Program-made: the position numbers and the translations under genes | Assembly: GCA_963666315.2 (NCBI GenBank) | Contig: CAXXHG010000017.1 | Location: forward strand, 1-55,114 | Origin: Candidatus Binatia bacterium | Lineage (GTDB): Bacteria; Desulfobacterota; Binatia; Bin18 | Direction of reading: 5' to 3' | DNA length: 55,114 bases | Part shown: positions 5,156 through 44,079 of the stretch, piece after piece | Position numbering within the stretch: position 1 is the stretch's first letter | How the letters are laid out: each line of letters opens with the position of its first letter | The notes under the pieces: model-generated | Seen by the model: the letters and a program-made list of their open reading frames with translations, nothing else | What the model was told of the DNA's origin: nothing | Database searches by the model: none

Positions 5156-6967
5156 TTAGTCTGTCGCTCGCATTTCTGCTCGAAGCGCCTGTGTGGCTGT
5201 CACATCAACCGTCTTCGCTGCGGTATCAATGATAACGCCGTAGACGTTTCGTGCCTTCTGCTCAGAGATATACTCGTCTAACACATCGTCGAGGACTTCT
5301 TGCTCTGTGCGATCTAGAGGATTCCCCCAACCACCACCGCCGGTCGTCTCGAACCAGAAGCTGTCGCCGTAGGCGAGTTTATGACCACGCAGCAGGGGAT
5401 TGAGCCATTTTTGCTCCTCCGTGATGCCACCGATAACTTTTTTGGTTCCATCTGGGGAAAGATGCCATAAGCGCTGCGGAACACTGCGCAGCCCACCATT
5501 CACACCCGGCGTGCCCTCACGGGTGCGGGCGGTCTCAACGCTCAGCGTGCCGTCGCACAAGAAACGAACCTTGAAATGAGCACCTACTCCTCCCCGATAA
5601 CGACCATCACCTGCCGAATCTTGACGCATATCATAGGCTTCATAGGCAACGGGGAACATCAATTCTGCGGTCTCGGCTTCCATATTCATGCAGTTGCCGA
5701 GCGGGTCCATGGTCACGTTCATGCCGTCATTGAATGGGGTGCCGCCCCAGCCACCGGCGGGCAGGTCGGAGAGGACGTCGGTCTTGCCGTCCGGCTCACG
5801 TACGCCGCACACAAACCAGTTGCAGTCGCCGCAGGCAGAACCCACCGCACGGTCCGGCAGGGCATGGGCAATCGCTTGCCACACGGCACTGGCGATTTTG
5901 GGTGCGGCCAGGACGGTGCAGCCTATCGTGGGAGCCGGCCATTTGGCGTTGAGCCAGCAGTCGTCCGGCAGGATAACGTTGATTGGGTTGAACATGCCTT
6001 CGTTTTGCGGGGCGGTCGGTTCGAGGAAGAACTGCAGGGAATAAAAGACCGCCGAATAAGTGTTGGCCTTAGGTGAATTAATAGCGCCCAGACATTGCGG
6101 GTCGGAGCCGGCGAGGTCAACCGTGATATCCGAGCCTTTGACCGTGAGTGTGACTTTGACCTTGACAGGATCGTCTGTCTGCCCATCGGTGTCTGCATAA
6201 TCTTCACCTTCGTAGACGCCGTCAGGGATGCTCTCGATTCTCTTGCGGACAATACGCTCCGTATAGGTGATCAGCTCGGCCATTGCCGCTTTGACCGTGT
6301 CTAAGCCGTAGCGCTCCGCCGCCGCTTGCATCTCTACTTCTGCTGCCTTGAGACAACCGACGTGGGCCTGTAGGTCGCCCTGCACAAAATGTGGGGTGCG
6401 GGTGTTGGCCAGGAGAATCTTGAGGATATCTGGTTTGACTTCATTATTCTCAAATGCCTTGATCGGCGGCAGTCTCAGGCCCTCTTCGGCGATATGGGTG
6501 CCCCAGGTTTGGCCGCCTGGCGCTCCGCCGCCAAAGTCCATCCAGTGCCCCCGACTCACTGCGAAGCCCAGCAACTGCGCGCCTTTATAGAAAATGGGTT
6601 TGATCCACGAGATGTCGTTAATATGAGTGCCGCCACGATACGGATCGTTGACCACATAAATATCGCCGTCTTTCATGTTTTCAATACCGAATTCGTCGCG
6701 GACGGCATGTGCGGAGAATTTCATAGCGGCCAGATGGACGGGGACGTTGGCTGCTTGGCTTAACAACCGCATCTCCGGGTCATAGATCGCGTTGGAAAAA
6801 TCAACCATGTCAGACAGGATGGGTGAAAATGATGCACGCTGCAGCACAGTGGTCATGCGATCGCAGGTGTACTCAAACAGATTACGCAAGACCTCAAAGG
6901 TAATATGGTCGAGCCCTTCCCGGGTTGTAATGCCTTCACCGATTTTCTCGAGTGCACTTGATTGCAT
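5156..6967 (-). CDS. Hydantoinase B / oxoprolinase family protein
   Basis: RASFSPIL..DFSNAI, NDPYRGGTHIND, HWMDFGG, GDGRYRGG, TGGGGWGNPLDR. Confidence 0.93.
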   Translation of the reverse strand: MQSSALEKIGEGITTREGLDHITFEVLRNLFEYTCDRMTTVLQRASFSPILSDMVDFSNAIYDPEMRLLSQAANVPVHLAAMKFSAHAVRDEFGIENMKDGDIYVVNDPYRGGTHINDISWIKPIFYKGAQLLGFAVSRGHWMDFGGGAPGGQTWGTHIAEEGLRLPPIKAFENNEVKPDILKILLANTRTPHFVQGDLQAHVGCLKAAEVEMQAAAERYGLDTVKAAMAELITYTERIVRKRIESIPDGVYEGEDYADTDGQTDDPVKVKVTLTVKGSDITVDLAGSDPQCLGAINSPKANTYSAVFYSLQFFLEPTAPQNEGMFNPINVILPDDCWLNAKWPAPTIGCTVLAAPKIASAVWQAIAHALPDRAVGSACGDCNWFVCGVREPDGKTDVLSDLPAGGWGGTPFNDGMNVTMDPLGNCMNMEAETAELMFPVAYEAYDMRQDSAGDGRYRGGVGAHFKVRFLCDGTLSVETARTREGTPGVNGGLRSVPQRLWHLSPDGTKKVIGGITEEQKWLNPLLRGHKLAYGDSFWFETTGGGGWGNPLDRTEQEVLDDVLDEYISEQKARNVYGVIIDTAAKTVDVTATQALRAEMRATD

Positions 6968-7011
6968 GGCCGTCCTCCTGACGATTAGCGCGCTAGCACG
7001 CTTCAGAACAT

Positions 7012-9069
7012 TTATAGTCCTACATCTATAATAAGATTTCCTGTGTTATCAACCCTTGCGTGTGAGCCGGGCGGTAAAACTGCGACCGAATCCACATATT
7101 CGAGGATGGCTGGACCGTGCGTTTCCTCTCCAGGCTGAAGGATCTGACCATTATACACCGGGCAGTCCTGCCATTCACCCGAAAAATATACCGACCGCGT
7201 GCTTTTCATGGCCACCACGTTTGCCTTTGCCGCACTCTGGTATGGAGGCAAGGACTCCGTAGGCGCAGTCGCTGCAACGCTGAGGGAGACAAAAGCGGGA
7301 TCAAAGATGTCCGAACTGACGCCGTGCTCTTGCTTGTGCGTGGCGTGGAACGCACCCGTGATGGTTGTGAGCGCAGTATCCGTTAGTCTCCCTTCCGGGA
7401 TGGATGTCTCAATCTCATACGTTTGGCCGACGTAGCGCATTTGTGCGGTGCGGGTGATAACGATATTTTCTGCTGAAACGCTGTCCTGGGCAAGCAGGTC
7501 ACGCGCAGTTTGTTCTAGCTCGGCATACGCGGTATTCAGCCGATCCAGATCAACTTCACCGACGGGTGAATACATAAACTGCTCAACGTCCTGGCGAAGG
7601 TCCATGACCGTCGCGCCAAAGGCGGACGCCACGCCTGCGGCAGCCGGAACGATGACCTTCGGAATATTCATCGCCCGAGCAACAAAGCAGGCGTGCATGG
7701 GGCCTGCTCCACCAAAGCTGACCAGCACAAAGTCGCGCGGGTCACGGCCTCTATTAATAATGACCTTTTTCACTGCCTGGGCCATAATTTCGCAACTGAT
7801 TTGGACCATGGCATCGGCGGTTTCGACTGGTGATAGACCGATTTGCTGAGCAAGCGGGGTCATGGCTTGCTCAGCAGCCGCCTGGTCAAGATTGATCTTG
7901 CCGCCCAGGGTGGGTTCAAGTCGTCCGAGTAAGAGGTTGGCGTCAGTAATGGTTGGTTCAGTCCCTCCGCTGCCATAACACGCCGGTCCGGGTTGAGAGC
8001 CTGCACTGCGCGGCCCGACGCGCAGTGAGCCCCCCGTGTCCACCCAGCCGATGGAACCTCCACCGGCACCGACGCTGTGAATATCAAGCATGGGTAAGAT
8101 AATCGGCAGGTCAAATTCGAGTTCATGCTCGCGCGTGACGAGTCCCTTGCCGTCTTCGACAATCGAGGCGTCAAAACTGGTGCCACCCATATCTGCGCAA
8201 ATGATACTGCGCTCTTTGATAGCGTCGGCCAGATAGCCCGCATACGCCACGCCGCCCGCAGGACCGGATGCCAAAAGTTCTTCCGGGTGTTCTTTGGCCA
8301 GGTCTACGCCTATCACGCCGCCGCTGCTTTTCAGAATAAGCAGCGAACCCTGAAAGCCTTGTTCTTTGAGGCGATCGAGCAAATGGTCGAAATAAGCGCT
8401 CATGACAGGCTTAAGCGCGGCACTGACAGAGGTGGTGACAAAACGACCGTGCTCGCGAAACAATGGCCGGGTCTCGCCGGACAGCATGATATGGGCATCA
8501 GGCATGTGTTCGAGCAAGATATCGCGCATCTGGCGTTCGTGATCGGCATTGACGTAGGAGTTGATGAAACACACAGCAATAGACTCAATGTCCTCTGCCG
8601 CGATCTGCTGGGCGACTCGGTGTGCCGTAGCTGTATCGAGCGGTCGCTCTTCTTTCCCTTGAACATTCGTTCGTTGCCGAACAGTATAGCGATAGCGGCG
8701 CCGAATCAGTGGTTTAGGCTTGACCTGATACGGGTCGTACAGCTCCTGTCGATGCTGTCTGCCGATCTCGATCGTGTCGCGAAAACCGTCAGTCGTAACC
8801 AAGGCCGGATCCGGATAGGAACGCTCAATCAAGGCATTCGTAGCCGTAGTCGTGCCGTGGACTAAACACGAGATCTGATCGAATGGAATACCCGACTGCT
8901 CGACCGCTTCGAGCGAGTCACGAGCGGCTTTCTTAACCGCTTCGATCACACCAATTGAACGATCCAACGGTGTGGTGAGGACTTTTGCCGTAACCCGCTC
9001 GCTCGTTGTCTCTTCCCAGCCGAAAAGGTCAGTAAACGTTCCGCCAACATCGACGCCCACACGCCACAT
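7012..9069 (-). CDS. Hydantoinase A / oxoprolinase family protein (ATP-dependent)
   Basis: VGVDVGGTFTD, HGTTTATNALIER, DMGGTSFD, GAGGGSI, GPRSAGSQPGPACYG. Confidence 0.95.
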   Translation of the reverse strand: MWRVGVDVGGTFTDLFGWEETTSERVTAKVLTTPLDRSIGVIEAVKKAARDSLEAVEQSGIPFDQISCLVHGTTTATNALIERSYPDPALVTTDGFRDTIEIGRQHRQELYDPYQVKPKPLIRRRYRYTVRQRTNVQGKEERPLDTATAHRVAQQIAAEDIESIAVCFINSYVNADHERQMRDILLEHMPDAHIMLSGETRPLFREHGRFVTTSVSAALKPVMSAYFDHLLDRLKEQGFQGSLLILKSSGGVIGVDLAKEHPEELLASGPAGGVAYAGYLADAIKERSIICADMGGTSFDASIVEDGKGLVTREHELEFDLPIILPMLDIHSVGAGGGSIGWVDTGGSLRVGPRSAGSQPGPACYGSGGTEPTITDANLLLGRLEPTLGGKINLDQAAAEQAMTPLAQQIGLSPVETADAMVQISCEIMAQAVKKVIINRGRDPRDFVLVSFGGAGPMHACFVARAMNIPKVIVPAAAGVASAFGATVMDLRQDVEQFMYSPVGEVDLDRLNTAYAELEQTARDLLAQDSVSAENIVITRTAQMRYVGQTYEIETSIPEGRLTDTALTTITGAFHATHKQEHGVSSDIFDPAFVSLSVAATAPTESLPPYQSAAKANVVAMKSTRSVYFSGEWQDCPVYNGQILQPGEETHGPAILEYVDSVAVLPPGSHARVDNTGNLIIDVGL

Positions 9070-16494: not shown

Positions 16495-19400
16495 GAGCAA
16501 CTCATCCAGCAATGTCTTGGCCTCTTGCAAATCTTTCGTGTCAAAGCCTTCGCTGAATCAATTATAGACGGGGGAGAGTAGGTTGCGAGCATCGATCCGC
16601 TTCCCCTGCTGCAGCCACAGACGGGCCAGGCTGGTGGTGGTGCGCAGTTCCCATGATTTCGCTTGTTGCTGGCGGGCTACGTCGAGGGCCTGGTGAAAAT
16701 ATGCCTCTGCTGCTGCTTCATCTCCTGAGGGCAGCGTCAGCTCTCCCTTCAGCCGATCCAGCTCAGCTTCATAGGCACACTCGTTCAGCGTTTCGACCTC
16801 ATGCAAGGCGTTAGTAAGTTCGGCGAACGCCGCGTCCAGCTGGCCGTTACCTTCATAGGCCTCAGCCGAGAGACCAAGATATTTGGTCCTCCCCATCGTC
16901 AATCCGTGCTCCTGGTAGACAGCCAGACCTTGTTGGAGTTGGGCAATACCTGCTTCGTTCTGGCCTTGCAGGGCCAACGCCCAGCCGAATAATATCTGTC
17001 CAAGCGCCAGCCAGTGCGGAAATTCCTGTTCAGTTGCAACACGGATAGCGGCTTCGGCTTGTCCTTGGGCAAGGTGCGTCTCTCGGCGTAGCTGTTGAAT
17101 CAGGCCGAGGAAGCCAGCGCAAACACTACGCTGAACGGCTGGGCGACGCCCTCAGCCAGCCGAAGACTCTTCTGGATCTGCAAGTGAGCCTTGTCCGGAT
17201 AACCCAGATGCCAGAGGGTGAAGGCGAGGTAGACACCGCACGCCACCCCGCTATCTGACCCGTATAAAAAGGCTAGTGTGTCATGAAGCTGAGGGTCGTA
17301 GAGGGCAACGCCCTGCCCACAGAACTCTCGGGCGACGGTCAGTTCCCCTTGCCAGAACGAGCGTGCCCCCCGCGTAAAGTTCACTTGCACAAGGAGAGCC
17401 GGGTCCTCAGAGGTTTCAGCGAGACCGAGAAGCTGCTCCATTAGCTCTTGTGACTTCTCGCCTTCACCCCGGTGACTATACAAGCGTGATAATGCCCATA
17501 ACACCGGGGCGAGTCGGGTCGTTTCCCCAAACTGCTGACAAAGTTCACGTGCACGGAGGTACGCGCGTTCCACCTCCACGGCGCCATAATTTTTAGTGGC
17601 GGCCAACACGGGTCCCAGATCGAGTTGAAGTAAGAGTTCTTGTCGAGCCTGTTCCGGGCTGTCAGGCAGGGCTTCCAGTAGGTCCAGTCCTGTACTTAGA
17701 TGGTGCTCTGCTTCAACATTAGCCGAACGCTGAGTAGCACGCTGGCCAGCCTGTTGCCATTAGGGAATAGCTTGTTCACTGCGCTGGGCCTCGGTGTAAT
17801 GATGCGCAACGAGTTCCGGTTGCGTCTCTTTTGTCTCGGGAAACTGTTCCTCAAAGACCTGCGCGATCTGGTGATGATAGTGGCGGCGGGCACGTCTCAG
17901 CAACGACTCATACGCTGTATCCTGGATTAGCGCATGCTTAAATTGGTAGCTTGCCTGCGGCGGCTGTTCTTGCTGGTGCACCAGCTCGGCTGCAACGAGC
18001 TGCTGGAGTGCTCCCTCCAAGCTCTCCGCCTCCTCCGGGTGGACGGCCTGGAGCACGTCATAGCGAAATTCCCGCCCAATCACGGCCCCGAGCTTGGCCA
18101 CCCCTTCGCCGGTCCCAGCCGGTCCAACCGCGCCATTAATGCATCTTGCAGCGTCACCGGAATCGTGCCTTCGGCCAGCGGGCCGATGAGCTCATAGTGG
18201 CCATTAACAGCGTGTAATATCCCTGACTCGACGATCGTCTTCGTCAACTCTTCGACAAACAACGGAATGCCATCTGTCTTGGTCACGATCTGCTCTAACA
18301 CCTCAGCCGGGAGCGGTCGGCCTCCTGTCACGTTGGCCACTATTCCCTCAATCTGCCCCGCGCCTAAGCGCGGCAACTCCACGTGCGTCAGATAGGCCGG
18401 TGCTCCCCAGGGCGCAATAAATTCCGGACGATACGTGATGAGGAGACACAGACGGGCTTGCGTTATCTGCTCCAGAAGTAAACTCAGCATCTCCAATGAC
18501 GACGGATCGATCCAATGCAGGTCCTCCCACACGAGCAGCGTTGGCTGGTGGGCGGCTTCTTCGCCCAGCCAGGCGACCAGCGCATCTTGCGTCTTCTGCC
18601 GCTGTTGTTGGGGGGTACCGCCGAGGGCGGGATACTCGTCCGGAGGCGGAAGGGATAAAAACTGCGCAAATAGAGGGACCGTCTCCGCCTCTGGAAACTG
18701 ATACGCTTCTAGTTTTTGTTTAAGTTTCCTGATTTTTGCGTCCGCGCCGTCGGCACGTGCAAATCCCGACCAGTGCTGGAGCAGCTCGGTGAGGGGAGAG
18801 AAAGCACTGTGCTGGGAGTAGGGCGAACAGCGCAGCCGCAGCTGGGTGGCACCCTCGTGTGCGGTCTGCTCACACAGCGCTTCGACTAAGCGCGACTTGC
18901 CGATGCCGGCCTCGCTGCTCACCACGATCACTTGCCGCTGTGCGGCTTGGCTCTGACCCCACTTGTCGCGTAAAAGCGTTATCTCCTCCTCGCGACCGAC
19001 CATCTGCGCCAGGCCCTGGGCAGCTACTACATCGAGCCGGCTCTGGGTAGCACTCTCCTGTACGACCCGGCGGAGGAGCATCGGTTCTGGGACTCCCTTA
19101 AGCGTATGACTCCCCAACTCCTCCCACTCGAAATACCCGGCCACCAACTGGGCGGTAGTGGGACTGATCGCTACTGTCCCGGGTTGCGCCACGCCTTGTA
19201 CCCGCGTGGCCACATTCGGCGTCTCGCCCATGGCGAGCTGATCGGTGCGGCTGCCAGCACCGATCTCGCCTGCCACGACTAAACCGGTATGAATACCCAT
19301 CCGCAGGGCCGCCTCCACGTCGTGTTCTGCTGCTATCCGGCTATTTAGGGGCTGCGTGGCGTCCAGGATAGCCAAGCCCGCGCGCACGGCCCGCTGGGCA

Positions 19401-20236
19401 TCATCTTCATTCGCTGCCGGATACCCAAAGTAGACCAGCAAGCCCGTATCTAAATATTGAGCGATATGGCCGGCATACCGAGCAATCACTTCAGCACTTG
19501 TTGTTTGATAGTCCCGTACGATGGCCAACAGGGCTTCCGGGCTCAGCTGGGCGGCTAACCGGGCCGCCCCGGCTAGTAGGCAGAACCTCACCGTCAGTTG
19601 ACGACGTTCGGCGGCATCGACTCCCTGCTCTCTTGAGTCGGTGGTGCTGGATCCCTGCTACTGCGCGTCTTGAAGCATCGAGCGGACCTGGAACACCCCA
19701 ACAGGGGCGGCAACGCCTTTGATGGCATGGGTACCCCGATCGTCCATCGCATATGTGTCGGAGAGATACTCTGCCGTGGATGTACTGACGACGACCGAGT
19801 TCGGAGTCGCCAGATCTTGAATTCCAGCCGCGATCGTCGGCGTCTCGCCGACGGTCAGTTGTTCGGTGTGACGCGCATCGCCGAGTGCCCCAAACACGGC
19901 TGGCCCCGTGTGCACGCCAATACGCACGGCTAGCGTTACGCCATAATCCTGCTGTAACCGTTCATTGAGTTCGGCCACCGCGGTCACGATCCTCAGCCCA
20001 GCTTGGACCGCATGCTGCGCGTCATCTTCGTGAACCTGGGGATAGCCAAAGTAGACCAACAAACCATCGCCTTGGTATGGCGCGACATGGCCTCCTAAGC
20101 GTTGGAGTATGGCGACACTCACCTGTTGATAAGCGCGCACGATATCCCGCCAGTCTTCCGGATCGAATTGACTCGACAGCTGGGTCGAGCTCACGAGATC
20201 ACTAAACAATACCGTCAGCGTCGTCTCTTCCGCCAT
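16495..20236 (-). pseudogene. Disrupted class III adenylate/guanylate cyclase (two tandem cyclase domains) - AAA ATPase - TPR protein
   Basis: TVLFSDLV/YQGDG/RIGVHTG, second AERRQLTV domain, EAGIGKS, WEDLHW, terminal xFSEGFDTKDL; lesions TAG 19658, frameshift near 18101, TAA 17760, frameshift near 17112, TGA 16558. Confidence 0.88.
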
Positions 20237-20491: not shown

Positions 20492-20519
20492 GTAGGGGCA
20501 ATTCATGAATTGCCCCTAC
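20492..20519. repeat. GTAG-tagged REP-like perfect palindrome
   Basis: GTAGGGGCAATTCATGAATTGCCCCTAC, 28-bp perfect palindrome just downstream of the UGSC gene. Confidence 0.8.
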
Positions 20520-20531
20520 CCACAAAACTGC

Positions 20532-21053
20532 TTACCCTGTCACCTTCTCAACAATCTGATCAAATACCGCATCCGCCCGTCCATGCACTTCTTCTGGTGT
20601 GAGGGGCTGAATGGGATGCTCAACCAGGATGACTTTGAAGTCAGGAAGACCCAATGCTTTCGCTTGTGCGAGTGCGGCATTGGAGAATTCTGTCGTCGCA
20701 AACACAGCCGAGGGGATACCGGCTTTTTCAAAAAATATTCCGTCGTGCACACTGCACGTGGTACACGACCCTCAATCGGCTAGCGCTTCTATCAGGAAGT
20801 CGCACTTTTGGGCCAGCTCTTGGCGAATGTCTTCCGGAGCCGGGCGGGCGAATGTGGGCTTCATGCGCCGGATGATTTCGCGTGGCTGAAAGCGTTCCGT
20901 TAAGATTTCCTCCACCCGGTCTAGGAAGAAGTTGCCTTTGGCTTTGCTAATATCGAGTAAGCCGATGGTCTTACCCTGCAAATCAGCCAGACGGGCAGCG
21001 AGGGCTGCAGTAGCCTGTTTCGGCGCTGCTGTTGGATCGTAGAGTTTTGCCAT
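20532..21053 (-). CDS. UGSC-family selenoprotein (173 aa, Sec94 at TGA 20772-20774)
   Basis: ORFs 20772..21053 and 20532..20750 are in frame; readthrough gives EALAD-U-GSCTTCSVHDG; hairpin directly after TGA; GGGAGG SD. Confidence 0.88.
20742..20769 (-). promoter_or_regulatory. Candidate bacterial SECIS for the UGSC gene
   Basis: mRNA GUCGUGUAC-CACGUGCAGU-GUGCACGAC: 9-bp stem (one G-U) starting 2 nt after UGA. Confidence 0.55.
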
Positions 21054-21172
21054 ATGTTTTCCTCCCTATAAGTAAGCCGGATACAGCAGAGCAAAATCCG
21101 GGAATAAGTTGATCCTGGATTCTGCTAACGCGCCATCCAGGCTACATAGTCTATCCATAGATCTCTTCAAAC

Positions 21173-22243
21173 TTAATGCGTCTCTATGGGCACAGTCACG
21201 AGTTCACTCTGCCCAGCGCCTCCGCCCCAACCGCACATATGCACGGAAAAGCGGCCAGCTGTCCCGCCTGCCACAACAATAATAATCTTGTCTGCTGAGG
21301 CGACCTTCGGGATGAGGGTGAAGTCGTCTGCGGCGTTTAACCAACCGGGTAGGCTCTCTCGCTTAATCCCTTCACTCCCGTCCGGTCCAGGAAGGAGTTC
21401 GTGCAAAGGCCGGCGGACGTTTTCATATAAATAGCGTTTCACATCCTGTTTGCTCATGCCGTCATTAGCAATGCTCTTCGCATGCTCCGGGCCAAGAACC
21501 ACAATATAGTTTCCAGCCAGATAGGTTTTATCACTCCAGCCCACGGCCATGCTGGCACCTAGGGTGTCTAAAATGCCGCGTGCCGTGCGGCTGCCGTGAT
21601 TACTCACACACTGCGGAGCATCGCAGCAATACACGCTGATCGTGCTTTGCTCCTGGTCGTAGCCTTGCTCGACATGCAACGGCTCCCACGGATTCTCTTC
21701 TTCGTACTCGCCAATGCAATAGGTATACTTGCCGGGATGGCCCATGGTCGATTTATCGATTTTACCCGGATGAGCCCCGCCGATATTGATCATGATCAAA
21801 CGCAGCGCCCGTCCGATGGTGGCGTTGGCTCGCCAGCCCGAACCAAATACGCCGGCTGCGCAGTTAATATCGAGCTGCTGACGGATTGGCCCGTTGACAA
21901 TAAACAGCGGCGTTGCCGTGTGTGTCGTGGCCTGCACGCCATGCAGATTGACCCGTTCGTCACACATGACTTGCACGCCTGCGAGAACGACGGGTAAGAA
22001 TTCCGGTTTACAACCGGCCATGACAGCATTCACCGTAATCTTCTCAATTGTCGCTTCGCCAAAGTTCGGCGGCACGAGGGCGACAACCTCATCTGCTGCC
22101 TTTGAGGCAGCGGCCAGCATTTGCTGCATCCGTTCTTCAGTGGGTGGGACAACGGGTAGCCCGTCGGTGACGCCTTGCTCGAAGTAGTATTCGATGGCGT
22201 CGAGTTCTTCGTTCAGACTGTTGGTATTGGTGTCTTGTGGCAT
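21173..22243 (-). CDS. Conserved hypothetical protein of the TDGLPVVPPT type, partner of UGSC proteins
   Basis: TDGLPVVPPTEERM, NAVMAGC, RANATIGRA, MGHPGKY; start moved to ATG 22243 because the longer ORF overlaps the divergent gene. Confidence 0.8.
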   Translation of the reverse strand: MPQDTNTNSLNEELDAIEYYFEQGVTDGLPVVPPTEERMQQMLAAASKAADEVVALVPPNFGEATIEKITVNAVMAGCKPEFLPVVLAGVQVMCDERVNLHGVQATTHTATPLFIVNGPIRQQLDINCAAGVFGSGWRANATIGRALRLIMINIGGAHPGKIDKSTMGHPGKYTYCIGEYEEENPWEPLHVEQGYDQEQSTISVYCCDAPQCVSNHGSRTARGILDTLGASMAVGWSDKTYLAGNYIVVLGPEHAKSIANDGMSKQDVKRYLYENVRRPLHELLPGPDGSEGIKRESLPGWLNAADDFTLIPKVASADKIIIVVAGGTAGRFSVHMCGWGGGAGQSELVTVPIETH

Positions 22244-22351: not shown

Positions 22352-23410
22352 ATGTCTAGTGCATTCAACGACTACTATTCGCATGAGGATCACGGCCCAT
22401 TTGAATTGTTCGATCTCGGTAACTTCACGCTGGAAGAGGGCGGGGCGCTTCATGACGGAAAGCTTGCCTATACGACACAGGGGACTCTGAACGCCCAAAA
22501 GGACAATGCCATTCTCCTGCCGACCTGGTACTCGGGAACCAGTAAGATCATGGCCGATGTTCATGTCGGTAAAGGCCGGGCGATTGATCCAGACGAGTAT
22601 TTTGTCATTATCGCCAACCAGCTGGGCAATGGCTTATCAAGTTCGCCGTCAAACACGCCTGTCCCGTTTAATATGGCGCGTTTTCCTCGGGTGCGGATCG
22701 GCGACGATGTGCGCGCCCAGCACAAACTCTTGACCGAGCAGTTTGGCATTGAACGATTGGAACTGGTGTGTGGCGGCTCCATGGGTGCTCAGCAAACCTA
22801 TGAGTGGGCAGTGCGCTATCCCGATATGGTCAAGCGCGCCGCACCGCTCGCAGGGACGGCCAAGAACACGCCGCACGACTTTTTGTATGTGGCGACGCTG
22901 AGTGAAGCGATCACCTCAGATCCCGCCTGGAATAATGGTTGGTATACAGACCCACATGCGGTCCATGTTGGATTACGCCGCCAGGCCCGCCTATGGGGAG
23001 TGATGGGGTTCTGTACCGAGTTGTTCAAGCAGGAACGGTTCCGCGAGCTGGGCTTCTCGTCCACCGAAGATTTCGTGGTCGGTTTTGTAGAAAACTACTT
23101 TCTGCCTATGGACCCGAATAATCTGCTGTGTATGGCCTGGAAATGGCAGCGCGGTGATGTCAGTCGCCATACCGGCGGTGACCTCAAGCAGGCGCTCGAA
23201 CGTATCACTGCGAAAGTATTTATCCTTCCCATAGACGAAGATATGTTCTTTCCTCCACGCGACTGTGAAGCGGAACAGAAACTCATTCCTAACAGCGAGT
23301 TTCGCGTGATACACAGCATATATGGCCACCTCGGGCTGTTTGGCATAGAGCAGGACTATATGAAACAAATCGATCAGCACTTGGGTGAGCTGCTGGCGAT
23401 ACCGGTGTAG
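22352..23410 (+). CDS. Alpha/beta hydrolase, homoserine O-acetyltransferase-like
   Basis: GTLNAQKDNAILLPTWY, GNGLSSSPSN, GGSMGAQ, DMFFPP, YGHL. Confidence 0.85.
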   Translation: MSSAFNDYYSHEDHGPFELFDLGNFTLEEGGALHDGKLAYTTQGTLNAQKDNAILLPTWYSGTSKIMADVHVGKGRAIDPDEYFVIIANQLGNGLSSSPSNTPVPFNMARFPRVRIGDDVRAQHKLLTEQFGIERLELVCGGSMGAQQTYEWAVRYPDMVKRAAPLAGTAKNTPHDFLYVATLSEAITSDPAWNNGWYTDPHAVHVGLRRQARLWGVMGFCTELFKQERFRELGFSSTEDFVVGFVENYFLPMDPNNLLCMAWKWQRGDVSRHTGGDLKQALERITAKVFILPIDEDMFFPPRDCEAEQKLIPNSEFRVIHSIYGHLGLFGIEQDYMKQIDQHLGELLAIPV

Positions 23411-41046: not shown

Positions 41047-43062
41047 TTACACCCGCGCAAAATACGAGCGTGCTCGCCCCAACGCTATGAGCGGAAAGTA
41101 GTGGCGGTACATATTGTAGTTGATCATAAAGCCGCGCTGGAGTTCGGTCCCCTGCATAAAGCGTTTTTTCATTTCTTGGACCTGCATATTCGTTCGTAAG
41201 CCTGTGCCGTAGCCGGGAAAACCAGTGCCGGTGTAATACGGCTCATCCCAGGTGCCGTCTTGTTGGGTACGTAGGAGGTAGTCGAGTCCTGTACGAATGG
41301 GGGCATCAAATGCGTGTCCGTCTACCGAGAGCAACGCCATGAGTGCCCAGGCGGTCTGGGAGGCCGTACTCGGCCCTTTGCCGCGTAAACGGTCGTCCAT
41401 ATACGAGGCACACGTCTCACCCCAACCGTCGTCTGCGTTCTGGTGATCCACAATCCACTGACCGGCTTTGTGGACATAGGCCGTGCTCATATCTTCGCCA
41501 ATAGCTTTGAGTGCCGGCAGGACTGCGGCCGTGCCATAGATATGATTCACGCCCCAACGACCGAACCAACTGCCTTCCGGCTCTTGATCCGCCAGAACGT
41601 AGGCAAGGGCACGGGCCATAGCGGGATGCGATTTGTTATACCCCAGCAGACCAAAGGCTTCGAGCACGTGGGCGGTCACATCGACACTGGGAGGATCGAG
41701 CGCCTCTCCGAAATCACAGAACGGAATCTTGGTCAGTAGAACCTTGTCGTTGTTTTTATCAAACGCAGCCCAGCCGCCGTTGTCTGACTGCATCGCCAGC
41801 ACCCAGGCTTTGGCGCGCTCAATCGGTTCATCAAAGCGCGTATCCCCAGGGCTCTGCTCGCGTAAATGCGCCAGGACGATCAGGGCCAGCGCTGTATCAT
41901 CAACATCCGGATACGCGGCATTCTCGCGCTCAAACGCCCAGCCGCCAGGACTTGCGGTCGGGACTTTTACTTGCCAGTCACCCCCCGTACTGACTTCTTT
42001 GCTCAAGATCCACTTCAGCGCGTGCTGCATGGGTTCCGACTGTTGGACCTGAAAATCACAATCGATCATGGCCAGCAGGGACAGCAGCGTATCCCAGATG
42101 GGAGATTCACTAGCTTGAATATGTAAACTCCCGTCACGTTCGTACGACCAGTGGTCGTCGATAGCGGAGAGTCCTTTGGCTACGACGGGATGCGAGAGCG
42201 GATAGCCTTCAATATTGAGGACCATGAGGCTGTAAATCCACGGGGGTTGAATCCCGCCCCACGCACCGTCTGCGTCCTGGTGCCGTATGATCCATTCCAG
42301 GCATTGCCGAACCGCGACTTCGCGACCCCGTATGAAACCAAATTTCAGACCGAGTTTTTGATACCAATGCAAGCATGCATTTGCCGTAAAAAAGAAGACT
42401 GGCCAGAAACCCGACCGCGACGGCAGGTCATAATTCATTTGCTCCCGACCATCCGGAAAGAGTTCGTCTAAGCGGCACTCTGGTGGCAGCGGGCGGCCGA
42501 CGTGCCGAGCTGACAGAATGGTCAGCGGCAGAATTGTTGCCCGTGCCCATGAAGCAAAATTATAAATGCTGAACGGAAACCACTTGGGAAAAAATACCGC
42601 TTCGGGCGGAAGATTGGGTGTTTTCTCCCACGGCCATTCACCGATCAGGGCGAGCCAATAACGGGTGAAAACGCGGATCTCACTGAGACCTCCATGGGCA
42701 AAGATCCAGTCGCGGGCTTTGCGCAGGCGGCCGTCGTTTGGGGGGAAGCCGTTTGCGCGTAAGGCCGCATAGCATTCAACGGTTGTATTAATGTCACCGT
42801 CCGGCGCGTCGTAATAGATTTCCCACGCGCCGTGTTCGCGCTGGGCATTGAGCAAGGTCTGAACAATCTTCTGCTTATGAGGATGTTCATAGCTCAGGAA
42901 GTGCATGGCCAGCAGCCACTGGGCTTCCATGCAGCAGTTGGACTGCAGCATGCCGACCCAGTAACCATCTTCGGCCTGCTCTCGGTACAACCAGGCCGTC
43001 GCGGCGTTGATGCCTTCGTCCAGGCTGGGCGCTATGTCCTGTGCGGCTATCGTGGCTGACAT
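41047..43062 (-). CDS. shc: Squalene-hopene cyclase
   Basis: Catalytic YPDVDDTA, QW-type repeats (Q..DGAWGG, QSDNGGW, QEPEGSW), FGRWGVN.IYGT, YFPL.AL; start ATG 43062. Confidence 0.96.
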   Translation of the reverse strand: MSATIAAQDIAPSLDEGINAATAWLYREQAEDGYWVGMLQSNCCMEAQWLLAMHFLSYEHPHKQKIVQTLLNAQREHGAWEIYYDAPDGDINTTVECYAALRANGFPPNDGRLRKARDWIFAHGGLSEIRVFTRYWLALIGEWPWEKTPNLPPEAVFFPKWFPFSIYNFASWARATILPLTILSARHVGRPLPPECRLDELFPDGREQMNYDLPSRSGFWPVFFFTANACLHWYQKLGLKFGFIRGREVAVRQCLEWIIRHQDADGAWGGIQPPWIYSLMVLNIEGYPLSHPVVAKGLSAIDDHWSYERDGSLHIQASESPIWDTLLSLLAMIDCDFQVQQSEPMQHALKWILSKEVSTGGDWQVKVPTASPGGWAFERENAAYPDVDDTALALIVLAHLREQSPGDTRFDEPIERAKAWVLAMQSDNGGWAAFDKNNDKVLLTKIPFCDFGEALDPPSVDVTAHVLEAFGLLGYNKSHPAMARALAYVLADQEPEGSWFGRWGVNHIYGTAAVLPALKAIGEDMSTAYVHKAGQWIVDHQNADDGWGETCASYMDDRLRGKGPSTASQTAWALMALLSVDGHAFDAPIRTGLDYLLRTQQDGTWDEPYYTGTGFPGYGTGLRTNMQVQEMKKRFMQGTELQRGFMINYNMYRHYFPLIALGRARSYFARV

Positions 43063-43248
43063 AATCGGATCATTCTCCCTCGCCTCCCTCGGGTTATAGT
43101 TGCGGCACAGATTATTGCATAGGGATGAGCAGGCTTCTAGTTGACCGCTTGAGAAAGGAGGAAAGACAGGTGAAGGATGACGATCTTGCTCGCTAACCGC
43201 GATCCGGCATAATATGCCGGACGATCCATGCAAAAAGGGGAGGCCGTT

Positions 43249-44079
43249 ATGGGGATACAAGACGCGGCGGAAACATTCGAGCCGTATAGATTCCAGACGC
43301 GCAACATTAACGAGGGCGAGAACAAAGCCCATACCAGAGAGGGTGCCCAAGCCTTGGGCTTGCGGGGCTCGATCGTGGGTGGTGCGCTGGTGTATGGGCA
43401 GATGATCCGCCCGCTGATTCAACGCTACGGTGAGCAGTGGCTCGGCTGCCACTGGTTTGACCTGCGCTTCAAATCCCCCGCTTATGATGATGACTGGGTT
43501 ACGTCGTCCATTACTCCGGATGTGGACAGTGACCAACCGCACGCTTTTTCAGTGAGAGCGATAAACGAGGCCGGACAGGAACTGATTGCCATGCAAACTC
43601 ACATTCCTGAGGCACCTCCTGGGGTGGACGCTTTGGCAGGACTCGAACCGATAGACTGGGAAGGCGAACGTGTACACGGGACTTGGGAGCGGATGGAACT
43701 CAACACACCGTTTCGGCGCTTCCGCTGGAAGTTGAGTCTATCGCAGCAGTTGAGCTATTGTGAGCGGACGCAGGAGGATGTGGCTATCTTTCGTGAGGGT
43801 GAGACGCCGCCGGTCCATCCTGGTCTGGTCATGGCGCACGGCAGCTTTGCCGTCCAGCATCAATTTGTCATGCCGTTTTGGATACATACCGGAAGTACGA
43901 TCCTGACGCGTGGGATCATTCGGGTCGGTGATGAGGTGGAGCTGCGCTGTGTGCCGATTGTAAAATGGAAGCGTAAAGACAATGAATGGGTGAAGTTTTA
44001 CCAGGTTTATGTGGTGAACGGTCAGCCCCTGGTCGAAGTCTGGAAGTCGTCGATTACGAAGTTCGTACCGCGCAGTTAG
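43249..44079 (+). CDS. Double hotdog-fold hypothetical protein
   Basis: ENKAHT.EGAQALGLRGSIVGG, LRFKSPAYD, PVHPG, PFWIH; GGAGG SD before ATG 43249. Confidence 0.7.
   Translation: MGIQDAAETFEPYRFQTRNINEGENKAHTREGAQALGLRGSIVGGALVYGQMIRPLIQRYGEQWLGCHWFDLRFKSPAYDDDWVTSSITPDVDSDQPHAFSVRAINEAGQELIAMQTHIPEAPPGVDALAGLEPIDWEGERVHGTWERMELNTPFRRFRWKLSLSQQLSYCERTQEDVAIFREGETPPVHPGLVMAHGSFAVQHQFVMPFWIHTGSTILTRGIIRVGDEVELRCVPIVKWKRKDNEWVKFYQVYVVNGQPLVEVWKSSITKFVPRS

What the first reader, a model, noticed from the sequence alone, without database searches (positions are those of the whole stretch)
20532..22243. UGSC selenoprotein (UxxCxxC) plus conserved partner: a two-gene redox module of unknown function
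Seen: an in-frame TGA joins a 93-aa and a 79-aa segment into EALAD-U-GSCTTCSVHDG, a 9-bp stem-loop starts 2 nt after the UGA, and the upstream co-directional gene is a 356-aa TDGLPVVPPT/NAVMAGC protein with several Cys. Established: UGSC-containing proteins are a recognised selenoprotein family with no assigned biochemistry. Inference: the two proteins form a complex acting on a small-molecule substrate from the surrounding catabolic genes.
Basis: partly seen in the sequence, partly recalled or inferred. Interest (0 to 1): 0.75.

Follow-up and report, generated by a model that had tools for sequence, protein, structure and literature searches.

The report
UGSC selenoprotein with its dedicated partner
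This is an ordinary member of a known selenium-containing protein family, encoded next to the large uncharacterised protein it almost always accompanies; the pair looks like a self-contained redox enzyme whose substrate is still unknown.

Summary
On the minus strand, 21053..20532 encodes a 173-aa protein if the TGA at 20774..20772 is read as selenocysteine. It scores above the curated cut-offs of the UGSC family. At the same column, 66 of 71 homologous sites in 80 related loci have TGA.

The 356-aa upstream gene has no Pfam, NCBIfam or PDB match. It is the "Unknown_1" domain that Zhang & Gladyshev (2008) showed fused to UGSC.

The link is tight:
- 60 of 80 partner-anchored loci have an adjacent UGSC.
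- 12 of 12 UGSC-anchored plasmid loci have an adjacent partner.

Partner relatives are also fused to thioredoxin-like, ferredoxin-thioredoxin-reductase-like and other CxxC domains. trxB or trxA sits beside some pairs. I infer that UGSC passes reducing equivalents to a catalytic cysteine in the partner.

UGSC models as flavodoxin-like, not thioredoxin-like.

The pair is a known kind with an orphan function.

The parts
21173..22243 (-). Partner gene, 356 aa plus stop. It belongs to the 'Unknown_1' family. Near-invariant residues are D27, T35, N72, C78, T107, R138, N140, R145, C176, E179 and W186.
   Evidence: Translation. No Pfam or NCBIfam match. Conservation. AF2 pLDDT 92.7. The motif matches Fig S1A of PMC2398784.
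21054..21172 (-). 119-nt spacer between the partner stop and the UGSC start. It carries a GGGAGG ribosome-binding site at 21066..21061, 7 nt before the ATG.
   Evidence: Read from the sequence.
20532..21053 (-). UGSC-family selenoprotein gene, 173 aa with Sec94, TAA stop at 20534..20532.
   Evidence: NF041046 167.5 bits (cut-off 125) and PF24696 174.5 bits. AF2 pLDDT 95.3, flavodoxin-like fold.
20772..20774 (-). In-frame TGA read as selenocysteine (codon 94).
   Evidence: The same column is TGA in 66 of 71 UGSC hits in the 80 loci (1 Cys, 1 Ser, 3 not covered).
20744..20758 (-). Inner hairpin. It has a 6-bp stem CGUGCA/UGCACG and loop GUG, and starts 13 nt after the UGA. It is the candidate SECIS core and extends to 20742..20760 in many homologues.
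   Evidence: Covariation score 0.218 against 0.104 in shuffles, reached by 0 of 500 shuffles. Pair 21-27 is CG in 39 and GC in 22 sequences. It is in the MFE fold of 45 of 67 sites. In the window it gives -7.4 kcal/mol.
20742..20769 (-). It shares its 3' arm with the inner hairpin, so the two exclude each other.
   Evidence: Present in the window MFE fold. It has no covariation support: 73.0% paired against 72.9% in shuffles, reached by 236 of 500 shuffles. It is in the MFE fold of 12 of 67 sites.
20492..20519 (-). 12-bp perfect hairpin 13 nt after the UGSC stop, with no U tract. It may mark the end of the transcript.
   Evidence: -27.8 kcal/mol, z -4.0, 0 of 200 shuffles. Single copy in the window. 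Not called by the terminator scan.

Best explanation
The locus is a two-gene operon on the minus strand: partner first, then UGSC.

Shown:
- UGSC is a real selenoprotein gene of the known UGSC family, with Sec94 in a U-G-S-C-T-T-C motif.
- The upstream gene is its dedicated companion. The two occur adjacent or fused across many phyla.

Inferred mechanism:
1. UGSC is a small flavodoxin-like redox carrier. Its Sec94/Cys97 pair sits at the N-terminus of a helix and cycles between the selenol/thiol and selenenylsulfide states. In this subfamily Cys100 lies one turn further along.
2. The 356-aa partner is the catalytic, substrate-binding component. Its near-invariant Cys78, usually helped by Cys176, becomes oxidised during turnover. 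R145, E179 and N140 hold a polar, probably anionic, substrate.
3. UGSC re-reduces the partner. UGSC is itself recharged by thioredoxin reductase or thioredoxin.

The substrate is unknown and is not indicated by the neighbouring genes.
For: Family membership:
- HMM scores are above the curated cut-offs.

Sec decoding:
- TGA lies at the same column in 66 of 71 homologous hits.
- Database homologues are mostly ~95-aa stubs ending ...ALAD, and Cys forms exist.
- A hairpin after the UGA is supported by covariation.

Pairing:
- 65 of 91 partner copies, and 60 of 80 loci, have a same-strand UGSC within 800 nt. The order is partner>UGSC in 39 and UGSC>partner in 26.
- 12 of 12 UGSC hits in plasmids have an adjacent partner.
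- 40 of the 150 best partner representatives carry UGSC fused, at either end. By Pfam this is 38 of the 66 long ones scanned.
- The fusion is in print (PMC2398784 Fig S1A).

Direction of electron flow:
- Other partner relatives are fused to AhpC-TSA/Redoxin domains. Five are called by Pfam. Five more have the same DCP[TA][CST]...PGC layout by eye. Four of the 19 UGSC-less loci show it too.
- One relative is fused to a ferredoxin-thioredoxin-reductase catalytic domain (P0146).
- Four are fused to a small CxxC domain.
- trxB, or trxB plus trxA, lies in the same gene string in Arthrobacter, Roseovarius and Variovorax plasmids.
- A Pyr_redox_2 gene sits directly upstream in L050 and L025.

Partner residues:
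- Among 240 sequences, C78 is kept in 232, C176 in 217, R145 and E179 in 240, and N140 in 238.

Models:
- Sec94 lies between strand 86-92 and helix 95-110.
- C78 lies just before helix 80-93.
Against: - No interaction was tested and no model coordinates were available. I do not know whether Sec94 can reach Cys78, or whether Cys78 and Cys176 are near each other.
- The direction of electron flow rests on the types of fused domain and on 5 of 92 loci with a thioredoxin-reductase-like neighbour.
- The opposite roles fit much of the same evidence. In that reading UGSC or the Prx-like domain is catalytic and the partner is its helper.
- 26 of 91 partner copies have no UGSC nearby. About 12 loci have no redox domain at all, for example the 315-aa Poribacteria forms. 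So the partner can work without a dedicated carrier.
- C176 is Val in 16 of 240 sequences.
- No Sec machinery or tRNA-Sec lies in the window.
- No Rfam SECIS model matches.
Confidence: 0.6

Rival explanations
1. The roles are reversed. UGSC (or the Prx-like domain in other relatives) is the catalytic peroxidase or reductase that meets the substrate. The 356-aa protein is its recycling reductase, chaperone or scaffold.
For: - AhpC-TSA/Redoxin domains fused to the partner belong to families that include peroxidases needing a reductant.
- Sec is typical of the attacking residue in redox enzymes (established knowledge).
- The partner keeps its conserved Cys whether or not UGSC is adjacent.
Against: - The partner has no match to any nucleotide-, flavin- or metal-cofactor family, so it has no evident electron source.
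- A ferredoxin-thioredoxin-reductase-like domain and trxB/trxA already supply reductant upstream.
- A 350-aa protein with invariant R, E and N plus near-invariant D, T and W looks like a substrate-binding enzyme.
- Many partners stand alone (85 of 150).
Confidence: 0.2
2. The pair is a minimal analogue of glycine or D-proline reductase. The partner activates a small molecule, and Sec of UGSC attacks it to cleave a C-X bond reductively. UGSC carries the fragment, as selenoproteins A and B do.
For: - The window's UxxCxxC motif resembles the one I recall for GrdB (recalled, not tested).
- UGSC and PrdB are both among the commonest selenoprotein families in the same GOS samples (Table 3 of PMC2398784).
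- The partner has invariant Arg and Glu suited to a carboxylate.
Against: - None of 64 UGSC sequences matches Pfam GRDB, even at E<=10.
- No GrdB or PrdB chain is among the Foldseek matches.
- The third Cys is absent from the UGSC>partner subfamily, which has W instead.
- There is no sign of a pyruvoyl-type proprotein.
Confidence: 0.07
3. The TGA is a true stop. The locus holds two short separate ORFs or a broken gene, and no selenoprotein is made.
For: - No tRNA-Sec, SelA, SelB or SelD lies in the 55-kb window.
- No Rfam SECIS match.
- The second part could begin at a GTG (72-aa ORF 20532..20750).
Against: - Both halves align to consecutive parts of one family model. Only the read-through passes the cut-off.
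- TGA at this exact column recurs in 66 of 71 sites from many phyla, with the frame kept open after it.
- Cys replaces it in cultured organisms, in 8 of 12 plasmid loci.
- A hairpin with compensatory changes follows the TGA.
- The family is a curated (seleno)protein family.
Confidence: 0.03

Closest known systems
UGSC family (seleno)protein (NCBIfam NF041046, Pfam PF24696; 'UGSC-containing protein' of Zhang & Gladyshev 2007/2008)
   Same: - Full-length match above the curated cut-offs.
- U-G-S-C at the family's Sec/Cys column.
- Size of about 170 aa.
- Function unassigned in the literature passages read.
   Different: - Nothing essential differs. The window's protein belongs to the subgroup with a third Cys (UGSCTTC) that goes with the partner>UGSC gene order.
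- The 2008 paper guessed a thioredoxin-like fold. The model here is flavodoxin-like.
UGSC/Unknown_1 fusion proteins (PMC2398784, Fig S1A)
   Same: - The same two modules. The window's partner carries the Unknown_1 motif (..VNAVMAGCKPEFLP..VNGP..).
- Unknown_1 was also noted as a stand-alone protein in a few organisms.
   Different: - Here the two are separate genes, in the order partner then UGSC.
- The published fusions have UGSC at the N-terminus.
- The paper gave no account of adjacency, other fused redox domains, trxB context or family size.
Thiol-dependent reductases with a dedicated or fused thioredoxin-like donor, for example methionine sulfoxide reductase-thioredoxin fusions (recalled analogy)
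   Same: - A catalytic Cys enzyme paired or fused with interchangeable CxxC/UxxC domains.
- A thioredoxin reductase gene lies nearby in some loci.
   Different: - No sequence or fold relation to any such enzyme was found.
- The substrate is unknown.
- This is a 'works like' comparison only.
Glycine / D-proline reductase selenoprotein B (GrdB/PrdB, Pfam GRDB)
   Same: - Sec in a UxxC(xxC) context (the GrdB motif is recalled).
- It acts together with a second protein.
   Different: - No GRDB match in any of 64 UGSC sequences at E<=10.
- No such chain appears in the fold search.
- It is not a member.
Class I (Fe-S) fumarate hydratase alpha subunit (PDB 7xky_A), the best fold match of the partner
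   Same: It is the only Foldseek match at E<=1e-3 (5.5e-4, probability 0.89).
   Different: - TM-scores are 0.29 and 0.34, rmsd 16.6 A and identity 12%.
- The partner has only two conserved Cys, so there is no three-Cys cluster site.
- This is not a credible relative on the evidence here.

Membership tests
UGSC family (seleno)protein (NF041046 / PF24696) | Full-length match to the family model above the curated cut-off | tested here: met
   NF041046 scores 167.5 bits against a cut-off of 125, over model positions 1-146 of 147. PF24696 scores 174.5 bits against a cut-off of 25, over 2-171 of 172.
UGSC family (seleno)protein (NF041046 / PF24696) | Sec (TGA) or Cys at the U-G-S-C column | tested here: met
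   The window has U94-G-S-C97. The column is invariant U/C in 64 aligned sequences. In the 80 loci it is 66 U, 1 C, 1 S and 3 not covered, of 71 hits.
UGSC family (seleno)protein (NF041046 / PF24696) | SECIS-type hairpin shortly after the UGA | tested here: inconclusive
   A conserved hairpin with compensatory changes exists. The changes largely track two subfamilies, so they reflect few independent events. No Rfam model matches. In the window an alternative stem is more stable.
UGSC family (seleno)protein (NF041046 / PF24696) | The host has Sec-insertion machinery (selA, selB, selD, tRNA-Sec) | not testable with these tools
   None lies in the window (no tRNA; 40 ORFs scanned).
Unknown_1 domain (Zhang & Gladyshev 2008) | Conserved A[VI]N[AG]VMAGC.P[ED][YF][ML]P ... 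VNGP block with the marked Cys | tested here: met
   Window partner residues 70-119 read against Fig S1A. The block N[AG]VMAGCxP was also the pattern that retrieved 560 confirmed relatives.
Unknown_1 domain (Zhang & Gladyshev 2008) | Association with UGSC | tested here: met
   60 of 80 loci; 12 of 12 plasmid loci; fusions in 40 of 150 representatives.
Thioredoxin-fold oxidoreductase (proposed for UGSC in 2008) | Thioredoxin-like fold | tested here: not met
   The AF2 model (pLDDT 95.3) is a repeated strand-helix alpha/beta fold. The best PDB matches shown are mostly flavodoxin-like (AzoR, SsuE, flavodoxin, CheY) at TM about 0.4-0.5, and no thioredoxin appears among the listed matches.
GrdB/PrdB selenoprotein B (Pfam GRDB) | Match to the GRDB model | tested here: not met
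   0 of 64 UGSC sequences match at E<=10.
Class I Fe-S fumarate hydratase (for the partner) | Global fold match and cluster-binding cysteines | tested here: not met
   TM 0.29 and 0.34, rmsd 16.6 A. Only C78 and C176 are conserved. No Pfam Fumerase match in 69 sequences.

The most novel reading that the evidence does not exclude
The partner ('Unknown_1') is a very large, unnamed family. It has 5457 representative clusters at E<=1e-3, no Pfam or NCBIfam model, and no convincing solved structural relative. On this reading it is a new class of cysteine-dependent reductase with its own fold.

It would draw electrons from interchangeable plug-in modules: UGSC, thioredoxin-like, ferredoxin-thioredoxin-reductase-like and a small CxxC domain. 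UGSC, one of the commonest aquatic selenoproteins, would exist solely as its dedicated selenol donor. Finding the substrate would then assign a function to thousands of orphan genes at once.
Probability: 0.35. Interest if true: 0.7.

Novelty: new member of a known kind. Interest (0 to 1): 0.45.

Why it matters
UGSC proteins were ranked among the most abundant selenoproteins in ocean and freshwater metagenomes: 255 Sec and 21 Cys forms in GOS (PMC2398784). Every passage I read still lists their function as unknown, up to a 2026 review.

This gene adds nothing new to the family. Following it up does sharpen the question in three ways:
- UGSC is essentially always tied to one partner family.
- That family swaps UGSC for other dithiol modules.
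- Cultured organisms carry Cys-form pairs next to trxB and trxA, for example Arthrobacter sp. ERGS1:01, Roseovarius sp. THAF8, Paracoccus versutus and haloarchaea.

The biochemistry is therefore directly testable without the need to express a selenoprotein.

Tried and rejected
- The search for longer, fused relatives of UGSC returned nothing. The tool itself calls that weak evidence. Fusion data therefore come from the partner side only.
- The ordinary UGSC search gave only 19 hits, mostly stubs truncated at the TGA.
- PDB sequence and profile searches gave nothing credible for either protein.
- ESM Atlas gave only unnamed clusters, and no usable hit among named clusters.
- Rfam gave no match in the window, and only chance-level matches around the gene.
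- The GrdB/PrdB kinship idea is rejected (no GRDB match).
- Class I fumarate hydratase, Toblerone-fold and YjgF resemblances of the partner are rejected as too weak.
- A search for a conserved third gene found none. TctC, family III CoA-transferase, NMT1/SBP, amidohydrolase and luciferase-like genes recur a few times each, but these are common families in these genomes.
- A crude scan of the window for other in-frame-TGA genes gave 115 candidates. None was convincing apart from UGSC.
- The promoter and terminator pattern scan found nothing useful.
Full report
**What is in the sequence.**
Both genes lie on the minus strand.
- Translating 21053..20532 with TGA read as U gives a 173-aa protein...FLIEALAD-U94-GSCTTCSVHDG..., ending at a TAA. 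The TGA is at 20774..20772.
- Table 11 sees only a 93-aa ORF (20772..21053) and, further on, a 72-aa GTG ORF.
- The upstream co-directional ORF from the ATG at 22243 to 21173 gives 356 aa with TDGLPVVPPT and NAVMAGC.
- A 119-nt spacer holding GGGAGG 7 nt before the ATG separates the two genes.

**Identity of the small protein.**
- The read-through product matches NCBIfam NF041046 "UGSC family (seleno)protein" at 167.5 bits (cut-off 125). It matches Pfam PF24696 at 174.5 bits.
- The two halves alone score 59.7 and 84 bits. They cover model positions 1-68 and 71-146, so the TGA falls exactly at the family's Sec/Cys position.

A search of predicted proteins found 19 relatives. Most are ~95-aa stubs that stop at ...ALAD, as expected if gene callers read the TGA as a stop. 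One is a full-length Cys form (GDCGSCSTNSVHDG).

**Evidence for Sec decoding from relatives.**
I fetched 80 loci around relatives of the partner. The closest are Candidatus Binatia MAGs at 89-94% identity. I scanned them with a UGSC profile built from the window protein and Cys-form fusion proteins, reading TGA as U.
- Of 71 UGSC hits, the key column is U in 66, Cys in 1 and Ser in 1. It is not covered in 3.
- The frame stays open and conserved after the TGA. In the 64-row alignment, U/C94, G95 and F123 are invariant, and C97, D104, H146 and P147 are nearly so.

**The hairpin after the UGA.**
I folded UGA plus 48 nt for 67 sites. I then aligned 63 of them without gaps. Four divergent paralogue rows with an indel were dropped: L050_12271, L045_11841, L043_190 and L079_3438.

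|---|---|---|
| Cells paired, observed vs shuffled | 83.7% vs 76.4% | 73.0% vs 72.9% |
| Covariation score, observed vs shuffled | 0.218 vs 0.104 | 0.097 vs 0.090 |
| Shuffles reaching the observed pairing | 0 of 500 | 236 of 500 |
| Shuffles reaching the observed covariation | 0 of 500 | 76 of 500 |
| Found in MFE folds | 45 of 67 | 12 of 67 |
| Energy in the window | -7.4 kcal/mol | -12.9 kcal/mol |

- In the inner hairpin, pair 21-27 is CG in 39 and GC in 22 sequences, and pair 19-29 has 5 double changes.
- The CG/GC switch follows the Cys(TGC)/Trp(TGG) subfamilies, so it reflects few independent events.
- The two stems share a 3' arm and cannot both form.
- The inner loop begins 19 nt after the UGA with a G. 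As I recall, that fits the published bacterial SECIS rules. This is recall, not a test. Rfam has no matching model.

**The partner.**
It matches no Pfam or NCBIfam family. None of 69 aligned relatives does either, even at E<=10.

The family is very large:
- All 8000 scored candidates were significant in the 90%-identity database. Those that carried a source name were called hypothetical proteins; most had none.
- 5457 clusters at 50% identity matched at E<=1e-3, and 1414 at E<=1e-30.

Conservation:
- Near-invariant residues include D27, T35, N72, C78, T107, R138, N140, R145, C176, E179 and W186.
- Over 240 sequences, C78 is kept in 232, C176 in 217 (Val in 16), R145 and E179 in all 240, and N140 in 238. 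This holds whether or not UGSC is adjacent.

Structure:
- AlphaFold2 gives a confident model (pLDDT 92.7, pTM 0.92).
- Foldseek against the PDB finds only one match at E<=1e-3. It is a class I fumarate hydratase alpha subunit with TM 0.29/0.34 and rmsd 16.6 A.
- PDB sequence and profile searches are empty.

I treat the fold as having no convincing solved relative.

**The link between the two is already in print.**
Zhang & Gladyshev (PLoS Genet 2008, PMC2398784) reported a UGSC/"Unknown_1" fusion. I read passages and the whole of supplementary file 1. Their Fig S1A alignment (AVNGVMAGCRPEYMP...VNGP) is the window partner's NAVMAGCKPEFLP...VNGP block.

My two literature searches on UGSC terms found 9 and 8 papers.
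- I read passages of five: PMC2398784, PMC13188914, PMC9312934, PMC1976440 and PMC7539508.
- The passages that speak of function call it unknown, and none of the five assigns one.
- The 2026 review says the functions of these selenoproteins remain largely uncharacterised.
- The other four I saw only as search listings.

**How tight the link is.**
- From the partner side, the 80 loci hold 91 partner copies. Of these, 65 have a same-strand UGSC within 800 nt: 39 as partner>UGSC (as in the window) and 26 as UGSC>partner.
- By locus, 60 of 80 are adjacent, 1 has UGSC 3.9 kb away and 19 have none. Three of those 19 are cut by contig ends.
- From the UGSC side, a tblastn of UGSC against 72,556 plasmid records found 12 records. 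All 12 have a partner homologue directly adjacent on the same strand, and two have one on both sides. Eight are Cys forms (haloarchaea, Arthrobacter, Embleya, Roseovarius, Variovorax). Four are Sec forms (Paracoccus x3, Acidovorax).
- Among the 150 best partner representatives, 40 carry UGSC fused:
  - 12 have full-length UGSC at the N-terminus.
  - 23 have only the post-TGA part at the N-terminus.
  - 4 have only the pre-TGA part at the C-terminus.
  - 1 is partial.
- Pfam agrees for 38 of the 66 long representatives scanned.
- Gene order tracks the motif. UGSCTTC occurs in 32 of 39 partner>UGSC pairs. UGSCTSW occurs in 16 of 26 UGSC>partner pairs.

**Clues to mechanism.**
Partner relatives without UGSC often carry another dithiol module instead.
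- AhpC-TSA/Redoxin domains are found in 5 representatives by Pfam.
- Five more have the same DCP[TA][CST]...PGC layout by eye.
- L020 and L046 show such a domain by Pfam. L026 and L042 show it by motif.
- One representative has a ferredoxin-thioredoxin-reductase catalytic domain (P0146).
- Four have a ~75-100-aa domain with A-C-x-[DE]-C.

Thioredoxin reductase genes also lie in the same gene strings.
- trxB-trxA-partner-UGSC in Arthrobacter sp. ERGS1:01.
- partner-UGSC-trxB in Roseovarius sp. THAF8.
- trxB two genes upstream in Variovorax sp. SRS16.
- Pyr_redox_2 ORFs directly upstream in L050 and L025.

Ferredoxin-thioredoxin reductase and thioredoxin reductase both deliver electrons to a disulfide (established knowledge). 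The simplest reading is therefore that the partner is the acceptor and catalytic end, and UGSC is its dedicated carrier.

In the UGSC model (pLDDT 95.3), Sec94 sits between strand 86-92 and helix 95-110. That is the usual position for a reactive CxxC-type pair. C78 of the partner sits just before helix 80-93. These steps are inferred. No interaction was tested.

**What is not supported.**
- The genes around the pair are not conserved. The 116 flanking ORFs of UGSC-positive loci and the 76 of UGSC-negative loci show no recurring third gene.
- The window's neighbours are catabolic genes: a MetX-like hydrolase, an HpaB-type monooxygenase, amidohydrolases, luciferase-like oxidoreductases and SDRs. 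They are shared only with its closest relatives (L001, L003).
- The substrate therefore cannot be read from context.
- UGSC is not thioredoxin-like in the model. Its best PDB matches are mostly flavodoxin-like proteins at TM about 0.4-0.5.
- Kinship with GrdB/PrdB found no support.

**Left open.**
- Sec machinery could not be checked beyond the window, which has none.
- The search for longer UGSC fusions returned nothing and is weak evidence.

**Verdict.**
This is a correct observation of an ordinary member of a known selenoprotein family, together with its known but unnamed companion. The interest lies in the orphan status of a very large partner family. The pair also now looks experimentally tractable.

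Noticed in passing
window 20492-20519 (minus strand): A perfect 12-bp hairpin lies 13 nt after the UGSC stop (-27.8 kcal/mol, z -4.0). It has no U tract and is a single copy in the window. It may be a terminator or a protein-binding palindrome.
   Followed up: partly
window 17100-20236 (minus strand): Two cyclase-domain genes lie downstream of UGSC. The second (18080-19591, cyclase plus AAA_16) seems to continue in other frames (17760-18101, 17100-17609 with TPR). The pieces match successive parts of the TOMM kinase/cyclase model. This may be a frameshifted or fragmented gene.
   Followed up: no
L069 3123-6268; L072; representatives P0151, P0176, P0178, P0231, P0239, P0270: Partner genes occur as three tandem copies, and as ~710-aa proteins with two partner domains. 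This hints that the partner works as an oligomer.
   Followed up: no
representatives P0144, P0150, P0161, P0181, P0204, P0228, P0229, P0237, P0265; loci L020, L026, L042, L046: The thioredoxin-like domains fused to the partner share a conserved linker motif, P-G-C-[GAQ] (F-G-C in P0150 and L042). It lies shortly before the partner domain and adds a further conserved Cys.
   Followed up: no
L001-L080, UGSC motif versus gene order: Gene order correlates with the residue three places after Cys97. It is Cys in partner>UGSC pairs and Trp in UGSC>partner pairs. The same codon change is compensated in the RNA hairpin.
   Followed up: partly
L087 (Natrinema zhouii), L090 (Arthrobacter), L081/L087, L082/L086/L087/L088/L018: Some annotated neighbours recur in a few loci: phosphosulfolactate synthase (2), DUF6282 (2 Natrinema) and family III CoA-transferase (5). 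There are too few to call a conserved context.
   Followed up: no
window 22352-23410 (+): A MetX-like alpha/beta hydrolase of family PRK07581 is transcribed divergently from the partner (512.5 bits, cut-off 332). It is also present beside the pair in L003.
   Followed up: no
window 5156-9069 (-) and 41047-43542 (-): There is a pair of hydantoinase/caprolactamase-like subunit genes, which score below the equivalog cut-offs. There is also a squalene-hopene cyclase (652.6 bits, cut-off 431.1).
   Followed up: no
L003 (record title): The locus most similar to the window (94% protein identity) is titled 'uncultured Enterobacteriaceae'. The next closest are Candidatus Binatia MAGs. The label of that bin looks doubtful.
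   Followed up: no
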